Shown here in pieces: positions 5,248 to 55,203 of a stretch of DNA of 64,000 bases. The notes below the pieces were generated by a model that saw nothing but the letters and a program-made list of their open reading frames with translations, did not search any database and was not told the origin of the DNA. Position 1 is the first letter of the stretch; each line of letters starts with the position of its first letter. A program made the translations under genes and the position numbers. The DNA comes from Octopus vulgaris (Eukaryota): the NCBI GenBank assembly GCA_951406725.2, contig OX597818.1, positions 103,788,001-103,852,000 on the forward strand, given 5' to 3'.

Positions 5248-5299
<52 letters not shown>

Positions 5300-5939
5300 G
5301 TACACACACATACACACAGAGATAACGAGGGAGAAGACTCAGATGACAACTTGCTCTCACTTTATTTCATGTTACATATGTTTCAGTATCGTGTAATTAA
5401 GTAACATCGCACTATAATACTATAAGTGCAGTATATATAATCAAAACTGGGTAGTACTTGCGCAGGAGAGAACACGCAAAGAAACAATATAGTCACTATA
5501 AAACACACACGCACATACATTTATATATCATATCGCTCTTCCATATTTGCTATGATCTTTTGACATTTATGTTTTGTTAGCTTCAGTCATAATACGTAAG
5601 AAATGCTGGAGCTCCTTCTCGAAGTCTTTTCAAGTCTGTTACTTGTTCCATCGTTGTATTATATCGAAATTTTGAGATACGGAACGTAAGCAAACCAACG
5701 CCAATTGTCGAGAGATTATGAGGGAGAATTTATAAAACAAAAAACACAAACATTTGGGTAGAATGCTCATACACACGATAACACACCACTACCACAAACA
5801 AGCACAGACACAGGCGCGCTCACACACATATGAATGTATATATACAGGCACACACACACATCTCAGCCCATTCAAACTTACTTCATTCTCTCCAATTTTC
5901 TTTCCTTCGCTCTCCAACTCCAATACACAACTGATACTT

Positions 5940-11489: not shown

Positions 11490-11589
11490 NNNNNNNNNNN
11501 NNNNNNNNNNNNNNNNNNNNNNNNNNNNNNNNNNNNNNNNNNNNNNNNNNNNNNNNNNNNNNNNNNNNNNNNNNNNNNNNNNNNNNNNN
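11490..11589. other. Assembly gap (100 N)
   Basis: Run of N. Confidence 1.
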
Positions 11590-11823: not shown

Positions 11824-12057
11824 TATATTTTATTGTTTGTGTGAAAGCTTCTATTTAAAATATACGTGGAACATGTCTACTTGTTTAGTTCGTTGTGTAT
11901 GTTATACAGACGTTGGAGGTGAAAGACAAACTGTGATTTGCACATGGATTTTGAAAATTATTATTCTTATTTACTAGTTTCATTTACATTCATTGTATCA
12001 CGGCGATCATAGATTATCCATGACTAGTTCAGTCGTTTATATTTACGGCAGTATTAA

Positions 12058-12535
12058 TTTTAGAAATATTACATTTCTAAATATTTCATAGAGATATGAG
12101 CGTTAGTGAAGCGATTGAGTGGTTGTATACTGTCAACGTAACGTGACAGTCCCGTAAAGGGAATCACACCACCGCTATTTAGCCCTAGGAAGCCTCGACG
12201 CTCATATCTCATGAGATATTTAGAAATTTAAAATTTCTAATTTTGGTGATCAGTGAATAGATTTCACTGAAAATATATATATTTGCGGAGGCTTGGCAAA
12301 CATCTCAACTAGCAGGCCTTACTACCCTAGACTGATGACGAGCAAGACTCAGAAATATGCATGTCTCTAGGTGCAGGCCCTAGCTAGTGGGGGTGCTTGT
12401 CTCCCCTTGGCAAATATAAGGACACAGGAAATGCGTCAAAGCCGACGGGAAGCGTCGATGCTTCCTAGGACTAAATAGCGGTGGTGTGATTCCCTTTACG
12501 GGACTGTCACGTTAAGTTGACAGTATCCAACCACA
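12058..12535. mobile_element. Family E palindromic non-autonomous element (Penelope pseudo-LTR-like) with hammerhead
   Basis: Inverted arms ~12120-12200 / 12452-12533 and 12059-12112 / 12198-12241; second copy at 54054-54426. Confidence 0.8.
12326..12371 (+). ncRNA. Minimal type I hammerhead ribozyme motif
   Basis: CCTAGA-CTGATGA-C-GAG(CAAGA)CTC-A-GAAA-TATGCAT-GTC-TCTAGG: 6-bp stem I, canonical core, GUC cleavage triplet at 12363-12365. Confidence 0.75.
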
Positions 12536-12829
12536 CTATTAATTTTATTATTCGTGAAAAATGCAGTTTAGAGCGAATCTGTTATATCGTGGAAAATCTC
12601 AATCAATTGTTCTGGTTTTACATCTTACATTATTGTAACAGAGCATGTTTAGATTTGTGAGCTGCATAAATCAGTAACAACATTTCATCTCAATCATCGA
12701 AAGCAGAGTATTCGTTGATAAGTGCTGTTTATGTGATCACATGATATAATGAACCGCATCCGGAAAGATATGAATTTAGAGAGACTACACAATAGCTTTC
12801 ATCTTCATGCAAATAACGATAAACGTCAC

Positions 12830-48261: not shown

Positions 48262-49697
48262 ATCCTTAAATCCTTAAAAATTGTTTTAGCCCGAAGGCCG
48301 CGACCATGCTGGGGCACCACCGCTGAATGAGCTACACTAATATGTGAATCCACCTCTGATACGTGGCACTTGATCAACAAGGGAATTCAATGCTGCTGCC
48401 CGCATCTGCGTCTCCTGTCGTGAGGTAGGTTCATTTGAGACTCCCGACAAGAAGAGATCCAGTTTAGTTTTAAAGAAACCCACATCCACACCATGTAAGT
48501 CTCTCAGGCATTTAGGGAGGATGTTAAAGAGCTGTGGTCCTCTGAAACCCAAGCTGTTGCAGTATCTGGACCTGTATTTTGATGGTGATGTTGGAATCTT
48601 TGGCACCATGTAGTGGCGCCCTGTTCTGCAGGTTGGGGTAACTTTGAATGACCAAAGTTTGGGACAAGACCCTCCAGGATTATCCAGATGTATATCACCG
48701 CATATCTCTCCCGCCTCCGCTCTAGGGAGAAGAGGTTTAATAATTTCAGTCTTTCCCAGTAGCTGATATTTTGCATTGAGACGATCTTCTTTGTGTAGAA
48801 TCTTCTTTGAATTGCTTCGAGTTCTGCTGTTTGTTTTATATTGTGTGGTGACCATAGTTGGGAGCAGTAGTCCAAGCGGCTGAGGACGAATGTTTTCCAT
48901 AGGACCATCAGTGTCTCCTTCTCTCTTGTTCTGAAAGTTCGGAGAATCCATCCAGCTAGCCGTCTGCATTTTATCACCAGATTAGCAATATGCATTTGGA
49001 AAGATGCATCATTGCTCATGTCAATGCCCAGGTCACGCACTGATTTTGACTCAGGGATTGCAATTCTTCCTGGGCCAGTGTATCCAGTCTTCACGTCATT
49101 TACCTTTGTGTGCCAGTAGCGCAGGGCCTGGAACTTACCTGCATTAAACTGCATGTTGTTGTCCTCAGCCCACCTGTATATTGTGTCCAGCTCATGTTGC
49201 AGATGCGCAATATTTTCAGGGTTTTGTATTGCGTGGGAGACTTTTGTGTCATCTGCATAGCTAGCAAGGGTGGTCATCGTAGCAACTGAAGGCATGTCTG
49301 AAAGGGCCACTATGAACATCAGTGGCCCCAAGACAGTGCCCTGTGGGACACCGCTTGTTATTTGCGTTTCCTTGGAGGTGGCTCCATTGCTCACAACTGC
49401 CTGTTTTCTGTCTTTTAGGAAGTTGTGCAGCCACTCTCCAAGTTTTCCCGCCTATGCCGAGACCACGCAGTTTGTGACAGATCATACCATGGTCGACTTT
49501 ATCAAAGGCTTTTGCAAAGTCGAGATATATTACATCCACATTTGAGCCATTTAGTAGCTGTTTCAACACCCAGTCATAGTGTTGCAGGAGCTGTGTTAGG
49601 CAGCCTCTACCTGGTCGAAATCCATGCTGGGTGTCAGACAGCAAGTCATTTTCTTCAAGGAACATGATTAGTTTCTTGCGGACTATTCGTATATCAT
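48262..49697 (-). mobile_element. 5'-truncated CR1/L2-group LINE: frameshifted reverse transcriptase, 3' UTR and (TTTAAGGA)n tail
   Basis: QHGFRPGRGCLTQLL, VIYLDFAKAFDKVDH, GVPQGTVLGPLMF, YADDTK, RLDYCSQLWSP and LERRRER across ORFs 49261-49743, 48504-49394 and 48337-48969. Confidence 0.95.
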
Positions 49698-49864
49698 TGC
49701 TTTTTGCAGCATGTTTGGATAGGGATATTCGTGTCTTTCTCATGAAAAAGCTTTGCCGTAATACCCTGTCTTTGCAATCTATCTTTGCATGTTTTCTCCC
49801 TGGTCCCCGTATATTTTGCTTTGAATGCTATACAATATAGATTTTTTGATGTTATGTACTTTTC

Positions 49865-50658
49865 TTTTCCAGAGAACCATCAGTGTCTCCTTCTCTCTTG
49901 TTCTGAAAGTTCGGAGAATCCATCCAGCTAGCCGTCTGCATTTTATCAACAGATTAGTAATATGCACTTGGAAAGATGCATCATTGCTCATGTCAATGCT
50001 CAGGTCACGCACTGATTTTGACTCAGGGATTGCAATTCTTCCTGGGCCAGTGTATCCAGTCTGCATGTCGTTGTGTACCGGTAGCGCAGGGCCTGGAACT
50101 TACCTGCATTAAACTGCATGTTGTTGTCCTCAGCCCACCTGTATATTGTGTCCAACTACTGTTGCAGATGCGCAATATTTTCAGGGTTTTGTATTGTTTG
50201 GGAGACTTTTGTGTCATCTGCATAGCTAGCAAGGGTGGCCATCATAGCAACTGAAGGTAAGTCTGAAAGAGCCACTATGAACAGCAGGGGCCCCAAGACA
50301 GTGCCCTGTGGAGCACCGCTTGTTATTTGTGTTTCCTTGGAGGTGGCTCCATTGCTCACAACTGCCTGTCTTCTATCTTTTAGGAAGTTGTGCAGCCACT
50401 CTCCAAGTTTTCCGCCTATGCCGAGACCACGCAGTTTGTGACAGATCATACCGTGGTCGACTTTATCAAAGGCTTTTCCAAAGTCGAGATATATTACATC
50501 CATATTTGAGCCATTTAGTAGCTGTTTTAACACCCAGTCATAGTGTTGCAGGAGCTGTGTTAAGCAGCTGCTACCTGGTTGAAATCCATGCTGGGTGTCA
50601 GACAGCAAGTCATTTTCTTCAAGGAACATGATTAGTTTCTTGCGGACTATTCGTATAT
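49865..50658 (-). mobile_element. Second, partial copy of the same LINE RT segment (stop codon and frameshifts)
   Basis: ORFs 50156-50629 and 49779-50066 repeat the same motifs; same 5' truncation point. Confidence 0.93.
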
Positions 50659-50796
50659 TTAAATTCTTTGAAAATGTTTTTTTCTTATATGGGATATTGT
50701 GTTTTCATTTCCTTTCATGAAAACTTTGAGCGTACACCCTTTGTCTTTCAATCTATCTTTCTGTTTCTCTCCCTCTCTCTCTCTCTCTCTCTTTCT

Positions 50797-53580: not shown

Positions 53581-54053
53581 TATATATATATATATTATTC
53601 CGTTCAAGATCCTCTGTCAAAATACATTAAGAACTCAAGAAGGTACGATCGTCGTTTTCTGAAGCACTATATTATTGTCGTGAATCCTTTTGCAATATCG
53701 AGTAATGATTACTGTTTGTGAATTCATTCGCACAACTTTTCGTAATGTAATCAAGAATTTCTAAATACCAACTCAGAAACTCAATGTGTCTTCCAGGTCA
53801 GGTTCATCGTGATCTACATGATAGTAATTGAATGAACAAAACATTCACTCTTCATAAACACAGACCTCTGTGATGTCACATACTTTCTCGTGCCAACCCC
53901 AGATAAATATTATACGTTCTCTTATGTCTCCACATGACAGAAGTTTTGATGAAAATGGTCTAACAATATTTTTCGCATTAACGTTTGTCTTCAGTCAAGA
54001 GGATAGTTATCTGTTTTAATCCAGGACAGTCATTTTAGTGGATGTCATTGTAT

Positions 54054-54426
54054 ATTAGAAATATTAAATTTCCAAATATCTCACAGAGATATGAGCAGTG
54101 GTGGAACGATAGAGCAGTTGTATACTGTCAACTTAACTTGACAGTCCTATAGAGGGAATTACACCACCGTTATTTAGCCCTAGGAAGCATCAACGCTTCC
54201 TGTCGGCCTTGACACATTTCCTGTGTCCTTAGGTTTACAAATGGGAGACAAGCACCCCCAACAGCTAGGCCTGCACCCAGAGGCGTGTTTCTGAATCTTG
54301 CTCGTCATCAGTCTGGAGTTGCATGGCCTGCTAGCTGAGATATTTAGGAACTTAATATTTCTAATTTTGGTGGTGTAATTCCATCTATGAGACTGTCAAG
54401 TTAAGTTGACAGTATACAACTGCTCA
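54054..54426. mobile_element. Family E element, second copy; hammerhead on minus strand (54277-54316)
   Basis: Homologous to 12058-12535; CCAGA-CTGATGA-CGAGCAAGATTCA-GAAA-CACGCC-TCTGG (4-nt deletion at the cleavage site). Confidence 0.82.
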
Positions 54427-55203
54427 TTGTATATTGTTTTAGCGAAAAATTCATTTCGCATTGGGGGGTAGTACCTTAATTATAATTCTGGCAGGGGCTA
54501 ATAACATGTGTAATATCTAGCTCAGTAACAGACATCATCCATATTGTAGAGGTTTCATTAAGCGCCCCGCTGTCTCATTTTTGTACTAAGTATTGTGCAG
54601 TAATCTCCTGTTCTTCGATTGCAGATGCATAGCCTTTAAAGGAGGATGTAATACAGCGGTCAAGCGTCCATCATGTCAATATTACTAATTCTTCAGGTCT
54701 TTGCAAAACATACCCTTTCCTAGTTTTGTTTCGTATGCTGTGCGTATATATATCATTTTTTGTGTGGAAGAAATGAGAAGATATAGGGTCCACTGAGGTA
54801 TCGCTTTTGAGTTTGGGGAACTGGTTTTCCACAAATGTGTGTGCATATGTATGTATGTACGCCTATGTGTGTATGGGTGTGTGTGGGCATGTTAGGGGGT
54901 GCATGATAGGTGTGTGCGTGGATATGTGGGTGTATGTGTGTGGGCATGATTGCGTTCAAAACTAAAATCAAGAAAAACAACACGGAGACCAAAGAACAGA
55001 ATTATTTTGTTCTTCAGTAAGAAATTTAGAGATTGTAAGATCTTTTATATTTGAAGCTACAAGCTTCTCTTAACATTAAATTGGTAGAAAGAAATATTAT
55101 TTATGAAGACATGATAAAAGAAACGGCATATAAGAGAAATATATACCCGAAGGCGTATATATCTGTATGTACGGATATTCACACATGTATACATATACAT
55201 AAC

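What the first reader, a model, noticed from the sequence alone, without database searches (positions are those of the whole stretch)
12058..12535. Family E: nested inverted-repeat element whose hammerhead covaries between copies
Stem I is CTAGA/TCTAG at 12327-12370 and CCAGA/TCTGG at 54277-54316 (minus), a compensatory U-A to C-G change. It is extended by GGCC..TGCA/TGCA-GGCC. Both copies have an unusual C...A juxtaposition closing stem II. The two loci contain the same modules in different inverted arrangements, as expected for PLE pseudo-LTR-type integration rather than for a TIR transposon.
Basis: partly seen in the sequence, partly recalled or inferred. Interest (0 to 1): 0.7.

Follow-up and report, generated by a model that had tools for sequence, protein, structure and literature searches.

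The report
Retrozyme hammerhead with fixed C·A mismatch
This stretch is one copy of a 353-base, protein-free repeat with about a thousand or more copies in this animal genome, likely pasted in by Penelope-type retrotransposon enzymes, and its predicted self-cutting hammerhead RNA keeps a C·A mismatch where hammerheads normally have a G–C pair.

Summary
Largely confirmed. 12060-12539 is one insertion of a 353-bp non-coding unit with a type I hammerhead. It has two arms back to back and an 11-nt flank duplication; copy 2 (54054-54425) is built alike. Among 212 insertions, 227 of 276 3' ends fall at two sites about 57 nt apart. 41 of 44 two-armed insertions use one site at each end, and 16 of 20 with plain flanks have a target duplication. 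This is published Penelope-like (PLE) integration anatomy, not a TIR transposon. The distinctive feature is C10.1·A11.1 in place of G10.1–C11.1. It is kept in three families whose stems covary (1,495 exact motif hits) and in one phage-like metagenome contig. Rfam misses it, and three literature searches did not find it (one key paper was unavailable). Cleavage is untested, truncated copies do not start at the cut site, and no autonomous partner was found. The scan earlier noted two-armed insertions in other retrozyme families of this genome, but not this family or this mismatch.

The parts
12052..12062 (+). Copy 1, left copy of the target duplication (TATTAATTTTA, includes 2-3 nt of microhomology with the element end)
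12060..12202 (-). Copy 1, inverted arm, unit positions 211-353; outer end is 3' end site B (with the ~57-nt tail); joins the other arm over a 4-nt overlap at 12199-12202
12199..12539 (+). Copy 1, main arm, unit positions 311-353 then 1-299 (wraps round the unit); outer end is 3' end site A
12326..12371 (+). Type I hammerhead: stem I 12326-12331/12366-12371, core CTGATGA 12332-12338, C10.1 12339, stem II 12340-12342/12348-12350, loop CAAGA, A11.1 12351, GAAA 12352-12355, self-complementary helix III 12355-12364, predicted cut after C12365
12308..12388 (+). Extension of stem I beyond a UAC/U internal loop (predicted loop 1); start of the long rod that carries the hammerhead
12537..12547 (+). Copy 1, right copy of the target duplication
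54045..54056 (+). Copy 2, left copy of the target duplication (TCATTGTATATT)
54054..54341 (-). Copy 2, main arm, unit positions 62-353; outer end is site B
54276..54317 (-). Copy 2 hammerhead, short-helix-III subfamily, C10.1·A11.1 kept, cleavage triplet decayed to GCC (predicted inactive)
54335..54425 (+). Copy 2, inverted arm: unit ~324-353 plus a few bases, a jump over a short GGTG microhomology, then 240-296; outer end is site A
54424..54435 (+). Copy 2, right copy of the target duplication

Best explanation
The stretch is a copy of a 353-bp non-coding repeat with a type I hammerhead fold that keeps C10.1·A11.1, and it is likely a non-LTR retrozyme copied in trans by an endonuclease-bearing Penelope-like element. 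Shown: unit length, partial head-to-tail tandems, scattered 5' truncation, two fixed 3' ends about 57 nt apart, AT-rich targets, back-to-back arms with one end of each kind, target duplications on those insertions, covarying stems I-III and the fixed C·A. Inferred: (1) tandem copies are transcribed and the hammerhead cuts after GUC, as a dimer through the palindromic helix III in the short subfamily, and monomers may close to circles; (2) a PLE protein makes a staggered cut of about 10 nt in AT-rich DNA; (3) each free DNA end primes reverse transcription inside the RNA, one at site A and the other at site B; (4) the two cDNAs run through the ribozyme and round the unit and join at a microhomology, giving the two-armed insert with a duplication; (5) when only one end is extended, an uninverted, 5'-truncated copy without a duplication results. 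C·A is predicted to fill the 10.1-11.1 slot as a wobble under the A9·G12 pair, keeping the four-step helix II and the loop 1-loop 2 contact, probably at a lower cleavage rate.
For: Unit and tandems; 60 of 212 insertions hold a segment longer than one unit. 3' ends: 118 at A and 109 at B of 276, in windows covering 33 of 353 positions; 81% AT beyond them in 140 flanks. Two-armed insertions with both ends defined: 41 of 44 are A+B (binomial p 8e-10 against 0.5), including 17 of 18 among loci fetched by the hammerhead pattern alone; the sister family F2 gives 8 of 10. Duplications: 16 of 20 A+B insertions with non-microsatellite flanks, 3 of 53 uninverted, 2 of 380 cross-paired controls. Arms of one insertion are about 92% alike against about 86% to other loci. 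Hammerhead: core positions 97.8% conserved against 92.0% for the unit (64 rows); stem II 96.7% paired with changes on both sides at all 3 pairs (40 rows); F2 stems I-III 91.1% paired, 6 of 13 pairs with double changes (39 rows); helix III self-complementary in 109 of 129, loop 2 ending in A in 123 of 129. C·A in 47 of 64 similarity-fetched copies, T·A (CpG decay) in 9, G–C in none. 344 plus 1,151 exact C·A core hits against 0 and 8 for controls. The monomer is strongly self-paired, z about -8.5 in 2 of 2 copies. The genome holds intact RT + GIY-YIG ORFs. Literature: two internal RT start sites, both strands extended, AT-rich cuts (PMC11167929); inverted pLTR, tail at one end, 8-10 bp TSD (PMC3846280); mussel retrozymes of 350-390 bp (PMC7229834).
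Against: No cleavage was measured. 5' ends do not pile up at the cut site: 1 of 55 segments starts within 3 nt of it and 29 cross it, which fits a circle but equally an uncut multimer. In both long-subfamily monomers folded (2 of 2), G8-A9-C10.1 pairs with the GUC triplet at probability 0.95-0.99, an inactive fold; window copy 1 folds the same way. No autonomous PLE with this unit or this hammerhead was found among 50 GIY-YIG loci or beside family loci; the PLEs read carry other hammerhead types. Mispairs at 10.1-11.1 other than U·U are reported to cut worse than U·U (PMC3088659). In vitro, a PLE did not need its hammerhead to insert (PMC11167929), and 8 of 9 frog retrozyme dimers did not cleave (bioRxiv 2026.07.22.740005). 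Pair counts count related sequences, not independent events; on the F2 alignment the number of covarying pairs did not exceed shuffles (317 of 500). In F2 only 2 of 8 A+B insertions showed a duplication, many having microsatellite flanks.
Confidence: 0.8

Rival explanations
1. Same mobile element, but the C·A hammerhead is catalytically silent or nearly so. The unit spreads from uncut tandem transcripts, and the fold is kept as a structural or protein-binding signal.
For: No 5'-end peak at the cut site (1 of 55); the competing G8A9C10.1:GUC fold in the long subfamily; PLE insertion in vitro is independent of hammerhead cleavage (PMC11167929).
Against: All catalytic bases, the GUC triplet (77 of 87) and a palindromic helix III that swaps ACAUGU/ACUAGU/ACUGCAGU are kept across three families. 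The same C·A core with a stable helix III occurs in a phage-like contig (L363).
Confidence: 0.2
2. The inverted arm arises by self-priming (fold-back) on an antisense template, as proposed for rotifer Penelope, not by priming from both target ends.
For: Proposed in PMC3846280; short overlaps at the inner junction; one A+A case (L609) and one F2 case (L559) are fold-backs that include the flanks.
Against: Self-priming alone does not predict that the outer ends are one A and one B in 41 of 44 cases, nor internal jumps within an arm as in copy 2; a purified PLE extends both target strands from two RNA sites (PMC11167929).
Confidence: 0.12
3. C and A are extra nucleotides on each side of an ordinary R10.1–Y11.1 pair (the known bulge after A9 plus an added A), rather than a replacement of that pair.
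For: An unpaired base between A9 and G10.1 is common in PLE hammerheads (PMC4209133); the next pair is G–C in most copies.
Against: With C·A counted, helix II has the four steps and 5-6-nt loop of canonical type I hammerheads (PMC4209133); without it only three. The next pair is A–U in 7 of 39 F2 copies. PLE minimal hammerheads have 7-8-bp helix II and no added base before G12 in the passages read.
Confidence: 0.25
4. A TIR DNA transposon (MITE) with a chance hammerhead-like core.
For: Copy 1 taken alone has an 84-bp, 95% inverted repeat and a flank duplication.
Against: 148 of 212 insertions have no inverted ends; arm lengths differ at each locus; copies are permuted partial tandems with scattered 5' truncation.
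Confidence: 0.02

Closest known systems
Metazoan non-LTR retrozymes (Cervera & de la Peña 2020, PMC7229834; passages and section 14 read, supplement unreadable; Li et al. bioRxiv 10.64898/2026.07.22.740005, parts 1-3 of 5 read)
   Same: Non-coding unit of about 350 bp, GC below 45%, type I hammerhead, tandem copies, strongly self-paired RNA, co-occurs with autonomous PLEs.
   Different: C10.1·A11.1 core; mostly dispersed partial tandems of 1-4 units rather than long arrays; no homology to a pLTR of an identified PLE; RNA and circles not shown here.
EN+ Penelope-like element insertions (Arkhipova et al. 2013, PMC3846280, passages; Craig et al. 2021, PMC8557442, passages; Frangieh et al. 2024, PMC11167929, main text parts 1-2 of 4)
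   Same: Partial tandems, inverted 5'-truncated arm, optional tail at one end, two RT start sites, AT-rich targets, TSD with inverted structure, none at simple 5' junctions.
   Different: No ORF; tail about 57 nt rather than 30-40; the one-A-one-B rule is counted here (41 of 44), whereas the papers say only that the tail is often at one end and Frangieh saw no strand difference in start sites.
Natural hammerheads with a mismatch at the base of helix II: U10.1·U11.1 (Perreault et al. 2011, PMC3088659, section 8 and passages; axolotl HHR_Amex2, PMC7229834 passage)
   Same: Intact core with a non-Watson-Crick 10.1-11.1 position.
   Different: Here the mismatch is C·A, fixed in three families and more than a thousand copies; it also allows an alternative pairing of G8-A9-C10.1 with the GUC triplet.
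Minimal PLE hammerheads (Cervera & de la Peña 2014, PMC4209133, results and discussion read)
   Same: Palindromic helix III for dimer cleavage; a nucleotide after A9.
   Different: Those keep G10.1–C11.1, have 7-8-bp helix II and poor loop 1; these have canonical 6-bp helix I, a conserved UAC/UGU bulge and a short helix II.

Membership tests
Non-LTR retrozyme | Non-coding unit of about 150-450 bp, low GC | tested here: met
   353 bp, GC 42-44%, no ORF of 110 aa or more over either window copy
Non-LTR retrozyme | Type I hammerhead in the unit | tested here: met
   Core, three helices and GUC conserved with covariation; variant at 10.1-11.1
Non-LTR retrozyme | Head-to-tail tandem copies, at least some with two complete hammerheads | tested here: met
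   L010 and L038 hold two and three hammerheads in tandem; L020 has four units, two with core deletions
Non-LTR retrozyme | No LTR, PBS or PPT | tested here: inconclusive
   Ends are permuted unit positions, not fixed LTRs; PBS and PPT were not scanned for
Non-LTR retrozyme | Self-cleavage and circular RNA in vivo | not testable with these tools
   No run on record as RNA and no raw reads; contigs cannot show ends or circles
PLE-mobilised insertion | Two 3' ends (tail), inverted 5' arm, partial tandems | tested here: met
PLE-mobilised insertion | TSD of about 8-10 bp with inverted structure, AT-rich target | tested here: met
   16 of 20 against 3 of 53; match lengths 11-16 nt including microhomology; 81% AT
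Autonomous PLE or its pLTR | RT + GIY-YIG ORF flanked by this sequence | tested here: not met
   No homology of the unit to the PLE ends in 50 GIY-YIG loci (best hit 38 nt, E 0.02); RT fragments near family loci look incidental. The search was a sample of 6,136 candidates, so a partner is not excluded.
Canonical hammerhead core | G10.1–C11.1 (R–Y) pair closing helix II | tested here: not met
   C·A 47, T·A 9, G–C 0 of 64; no Rfam hammerhead match
TIR DNA transposon / MITE | Fixed terminal inverted repeats in all copies | tested here: not met
   148 of 212 uninverted; arms variable

The most novel reading that the evidence does not exclude
C10.1·A11.1 defines an active, unrecognised hammerhead subtype that arose independently in animal retrozymes and in a phage tRNA array and is invisible to Rfam. 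It may act as a built-in switch, since C10.1 lets G8-A9-C10.1 pair with the GUC site. The strict one-A-one-B ends record a dimeric PLE enzyme priming the two target strands at two different sites of the RNA.
Probability: 0.45. Interest if true: 0.62.

Novelty: new variant of a known kind. Interest (0 to 1): 0.45.

Why it matters
G10.1–C11.1 is described as the most conserved hammerhead pair after A15.1–U16.1 (PMC3088659), with U·U the natural exception found in the papers read. A C·A version that has spread in three families with covarying stems would widen the consensus and show that descriptor and Rfam searches miss a class of genomic ribozymes. It can be tested with a 50-nt transcript. The insertions also give counts for the PLE integration step (one start site per target strand, duplication only when both ends are extended), which turns the open question of how PLEs finish integration into a concrete in vitro prediction. 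The element class and the insertion anatomy are already known, which caps the score.

Tried and rejected
Rfam: the whole-window scan listed only microsatellite-driven miRNA and snoRNA-type hits among the 150 of 252 rows shown; no hammerhead in 12000-12600 at E up to 10 or in L363, L004, L089, L200 at gathering score. Expression: no RNA holder listed. Contigs of four runs guessed to be RNA cover all 30 bins of the unit and include an end-to-start joint, but tandem DNA gives the same joint, so this is not used as evidence. Genomic sign of cleavage: no 5'-end peak at the cut. Autonomous partner: a recalled Pfam accession was not in the library; GIY-YIG search gave 148 scored matches, of which 30 loci and 20 longer stretches were read with no link; PLE ORFs near L190, L130, L071, L491, L617 and L618 are opposite-strand, interrupted or unrelated. 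Viral contigs: 80 pattern hits, 2 with a 3-bp stem II, none with stem I. Metagenome contigs: 80 hits tested of 119 found, 2 passed the filter, only L363 convincing. MAFFT misaligned the 3' side across helix III lengths, so stem I across subfamilies was counted by core anchoring and formally only within F2. The fourth fold used a range that missed the hammerhead and was ignored; one of six copies failed to parse and one misfolded. Papers not held: Lünse et al. 2017, Hammann et al. 2012, Nelson & Uhlenbeck 2008; supplement of PMC7229834 unreadable. DIRS-type split repeats were considered from the nested inversions and dropped once the unit proved a permuted tandem.

Full report
What is at the coordinates. 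The window lies in a 2.8-Gb animal genome (G000); earlier scan notes call it octopus-like, which I did not test. Copy 1 has stem I CCTAGA/TCTAGG, core CTGATGA at 12332-12338, then C, GAG-CAAGA-CTC, A, GAAA, a self-complementary helix III and GTC ending at 12365. Copy 2 (minus strand) has CCAGA/TCTGG and the same C...A, but its triplet has decayed to GCC, so it is predicted dead. Only these two copies are in the window. Rfam found no hammerhead here.

The family. Similarity searches gave 2,364 and 3,199 first-look candidates, and one exact 29-nt motif has 1,004 hits with 0 in the control. Mapping loci onto one natural copy shows a 353-bp unit in permuted partial tandems. It has no ORF, 42-44% GC, and folds far better than shuffles (z about -8.5 in 2 of 2 copies). 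Copy 1 is an inverted arm (unit 211-353) back to back with a main arm (311-353 then 1-299). Copy 2 is a main arm (62-353) with an inverted arm that jumps internally. Arms within an insertion are about 92% alike, against about 86% to other loci, so they come from the same or a closely related template and the insertions are not recent.

How it inserts. Across 212 distinct insertions from 252 loci with a hit, 64 are back to back and 148 uninverted. Of 276 3' ends, 118 lie at site A (unit 286-302) and 109 at site B (344-6), about 57 nt apart; 49 lie elsewhere. The DNA beyond is 81% AT. Of the 44 two-armed insertions with both ends at a defined site, 41 have one A and one B, 2 are A+A and 1 is B+B; 20 more have an undefined end. 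Loci fetched only by the hammerhead pattern give 17 of 18, so query bias does not explain it, and the sister family F2 gives 8 of 10. A flank duplication of 11-16 matching bases, including microhomology, is present in 16 of 20 A+B insertions with non-microsatellite flanks, 3 of 53 uninverted ones and 2 of 380 cross-paired controls; in F2 it was seen in only 2 of 8. Both window copies have one. This is the anatomy published for Penelope: inverted pLTR, tail on one end, 8-10-bp TSD, and microhomology without TSD at simple 5' junctions (PMC3846280, passages; PMC8557442, passages). A purified PLE cuts AT-rich DNA, extends both strands and starts at two internal RNA sites that bound the tail (PMC11167929, main text). 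I infer priming from both ends of a staggered cut, one at each site. Two searches for twin priming or TSD with PLE terms returned 1 and 4 papers, and the two I read passages of gave no such count. Earlier scan notes describe two-armed insertions for other retrozyme families in this genome.

The ribozyme. These are subfamily differences, not independent events. Core positions are 97.8% conserved against 92.0% for the unit. Helix III comes as ACAUGU, ACUAGU, ACAUGCAUGU and, in F2, ACUGCAGU and others, and is self-complementary in 109 of 129. That is the signature of dimer cleavage (PMC4209133, results and discussion). Helix I is 6 bp, followed by a UAC or UGU bulge, and loop 2 ends in A in 123 of 129, consistent with the loop-loop contact of canonical type I motifs (PMC4209133; PMC6155905, passages). 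Stem II is 96.7% paired, with double changes at all three pairs across families. Within F2, stems I-III are 91.1% paired; cells with double changes exceed all shuffles, but the number of covarying pairs does not.

The C·A position. In 64 copies fetched by similarity, not by the motif, 10.1/11.1 is C·A in 47, T·A in 9 (C is followed by G, so CpG decay is the likely cause), G–C in none and other or gapped in 8. Exact patterns with C·A give 344 hits for GAG/CTC stems and 1,151 for stems with G or C at the middle pair (control 8); in the 100 listed, that middle pair is Watson-Crick in about 92 by my reading. A G–C pattern of like spacing gives 486 hits (control 19); the patterns differ, so this is only a rough comparison. 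The C·A hits fall into family E, a distant sister F2 (357 bp) and an older group with GCC/GGC stems. Runs under three organism labels hold the hammerhead with only C>T listed at 10.1 (12-22% of depth) and nothing listed at 11.1. One metagenome contig, L363, has a complete type I hammerhead with C·A, 6-bp stem I and a GAAA-capped helix III, just behind a tRNA in a tRNA/tmRNA array. The papers read call G10.1–C11.1 highly conserved (PMC4209133) and give U·U as the natural exception (PMC3088659, section 8; PMC7229834, passage). Searches found no C10.1·A11.1, and one search listed no cephalopod retrozyme paper among its 20 of 87 hits. Lünse et al. 2017 on PLE hammerhead variants was not held, and the PMC7229834 supplement could not be read; either could contain this variant.

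Results against the reading. Cleavage is not shown. 5' ends are spread round the unit, with 1 of 55 within 3 nt of the cut and 29 crossing it, so the template was a circle or an uncut multimer, and I cannot tell which. In the long subfamily, including window copy 1, the predicted fold pairs G8-A9-C10.1 with GUC (0.95-0.99 in 2 of 2 monomers), whereas two short-subfamily copies form stem II; ViennaRNA ignores tertiary contacts, so this may be a switch, a defect or an artefact. The genome has intact RT + GIY-YIG ORFs (781 aa), but those read carry other hammerhead types and share no sequence with the unit. Li et al. (bioRxiv 10.64898/2026.07.22.740005, parts 1-3 of 5) found pLTR homology for 24 of 57 frog families and cleavage in 1 of 9 dimers.

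Verdict. It works like, and by the testable features is, a non-LTR retrozyme moved by PLE machinery (confidence 0.8). It is not a TIR element and not a pLTR of an identified PLE. The class and the insertion anatomy are known. The fixed C10.1·A11.1 core is a variant I could not find described, and the A+B rule is a useful count on a known feature. Novelty: new variant of a known kind; interest 0.45.

Noticed in passing
L363:1475-1535 (minus strand): Complete type I hammerhead with C10.1·A11.1 and a stable GAAA-capped helix III, 14 nt behind a tRNA gene in a phage-like tRNA/tmRNA array; not detected by Rfam.
   Followed up: partly
L200, L062, L130, L197 and others (G000): Sister retrozyme family F2, 357-bp unit, same C·A core, 8-nt palindromic helix III, two 3' ends about 45 nt apart, two-armed insertions 8 of 10 A+B.
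   Followed up: partly
L116, L122, L125, L185, L189, L191, L568-L571: Older group of C·A hammerheads with GCC/GGC or ACC/GGT stems and UAUUGA-type loops; unit not defined.
   Followed up: no
L163:610-4291 and its 3' UTR near 5260-5300: Young, abundant PLE with a 781-aa RT + GIY-YIG frame and an upstream 359-aa frame; its 3' UTR has a hammerhead-like motif with the U3-A8 core variant and short internal repeats.
   Followed up: no
L165:4760-4810, L190:1055-1105: Second PLE family (99% identical copies) with a minimal hammerhead in the 3' UTR; both loci read have C3 replaced (CCGAAGA) where L136/L171 and L177 have CTGAAGA.
   Followed up: no
unit positions 33-42 in L035, L037, L050, L078, L082, L085: The TA-rich stretch of the unit is a hot spot for secondary insertions, including an F2 retrozyme inside family E (L078).
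   Followed up: no
L010, L020, L038: Units within one tandem differ at diagnostic sites (A-B-A pattern in L038; both stem I variants in L010), which suggests mixed multimer templates or template switching.
   Followed up: partly
L609, L559: A+A inverted copies whose flanks are reverse complements of each other: fold-back duplications, a different process from the A+B insertions.
   Followed up: no
window 48337-50704 (minus): Fragments of a LINE reverse transcriptase ORF, partly duplicated; unrelated to this finding.
   Followed up: no
window 11490-11589: Assembly gap of 100 N about 470 bp upstream of copy 1.
   Followed up: no
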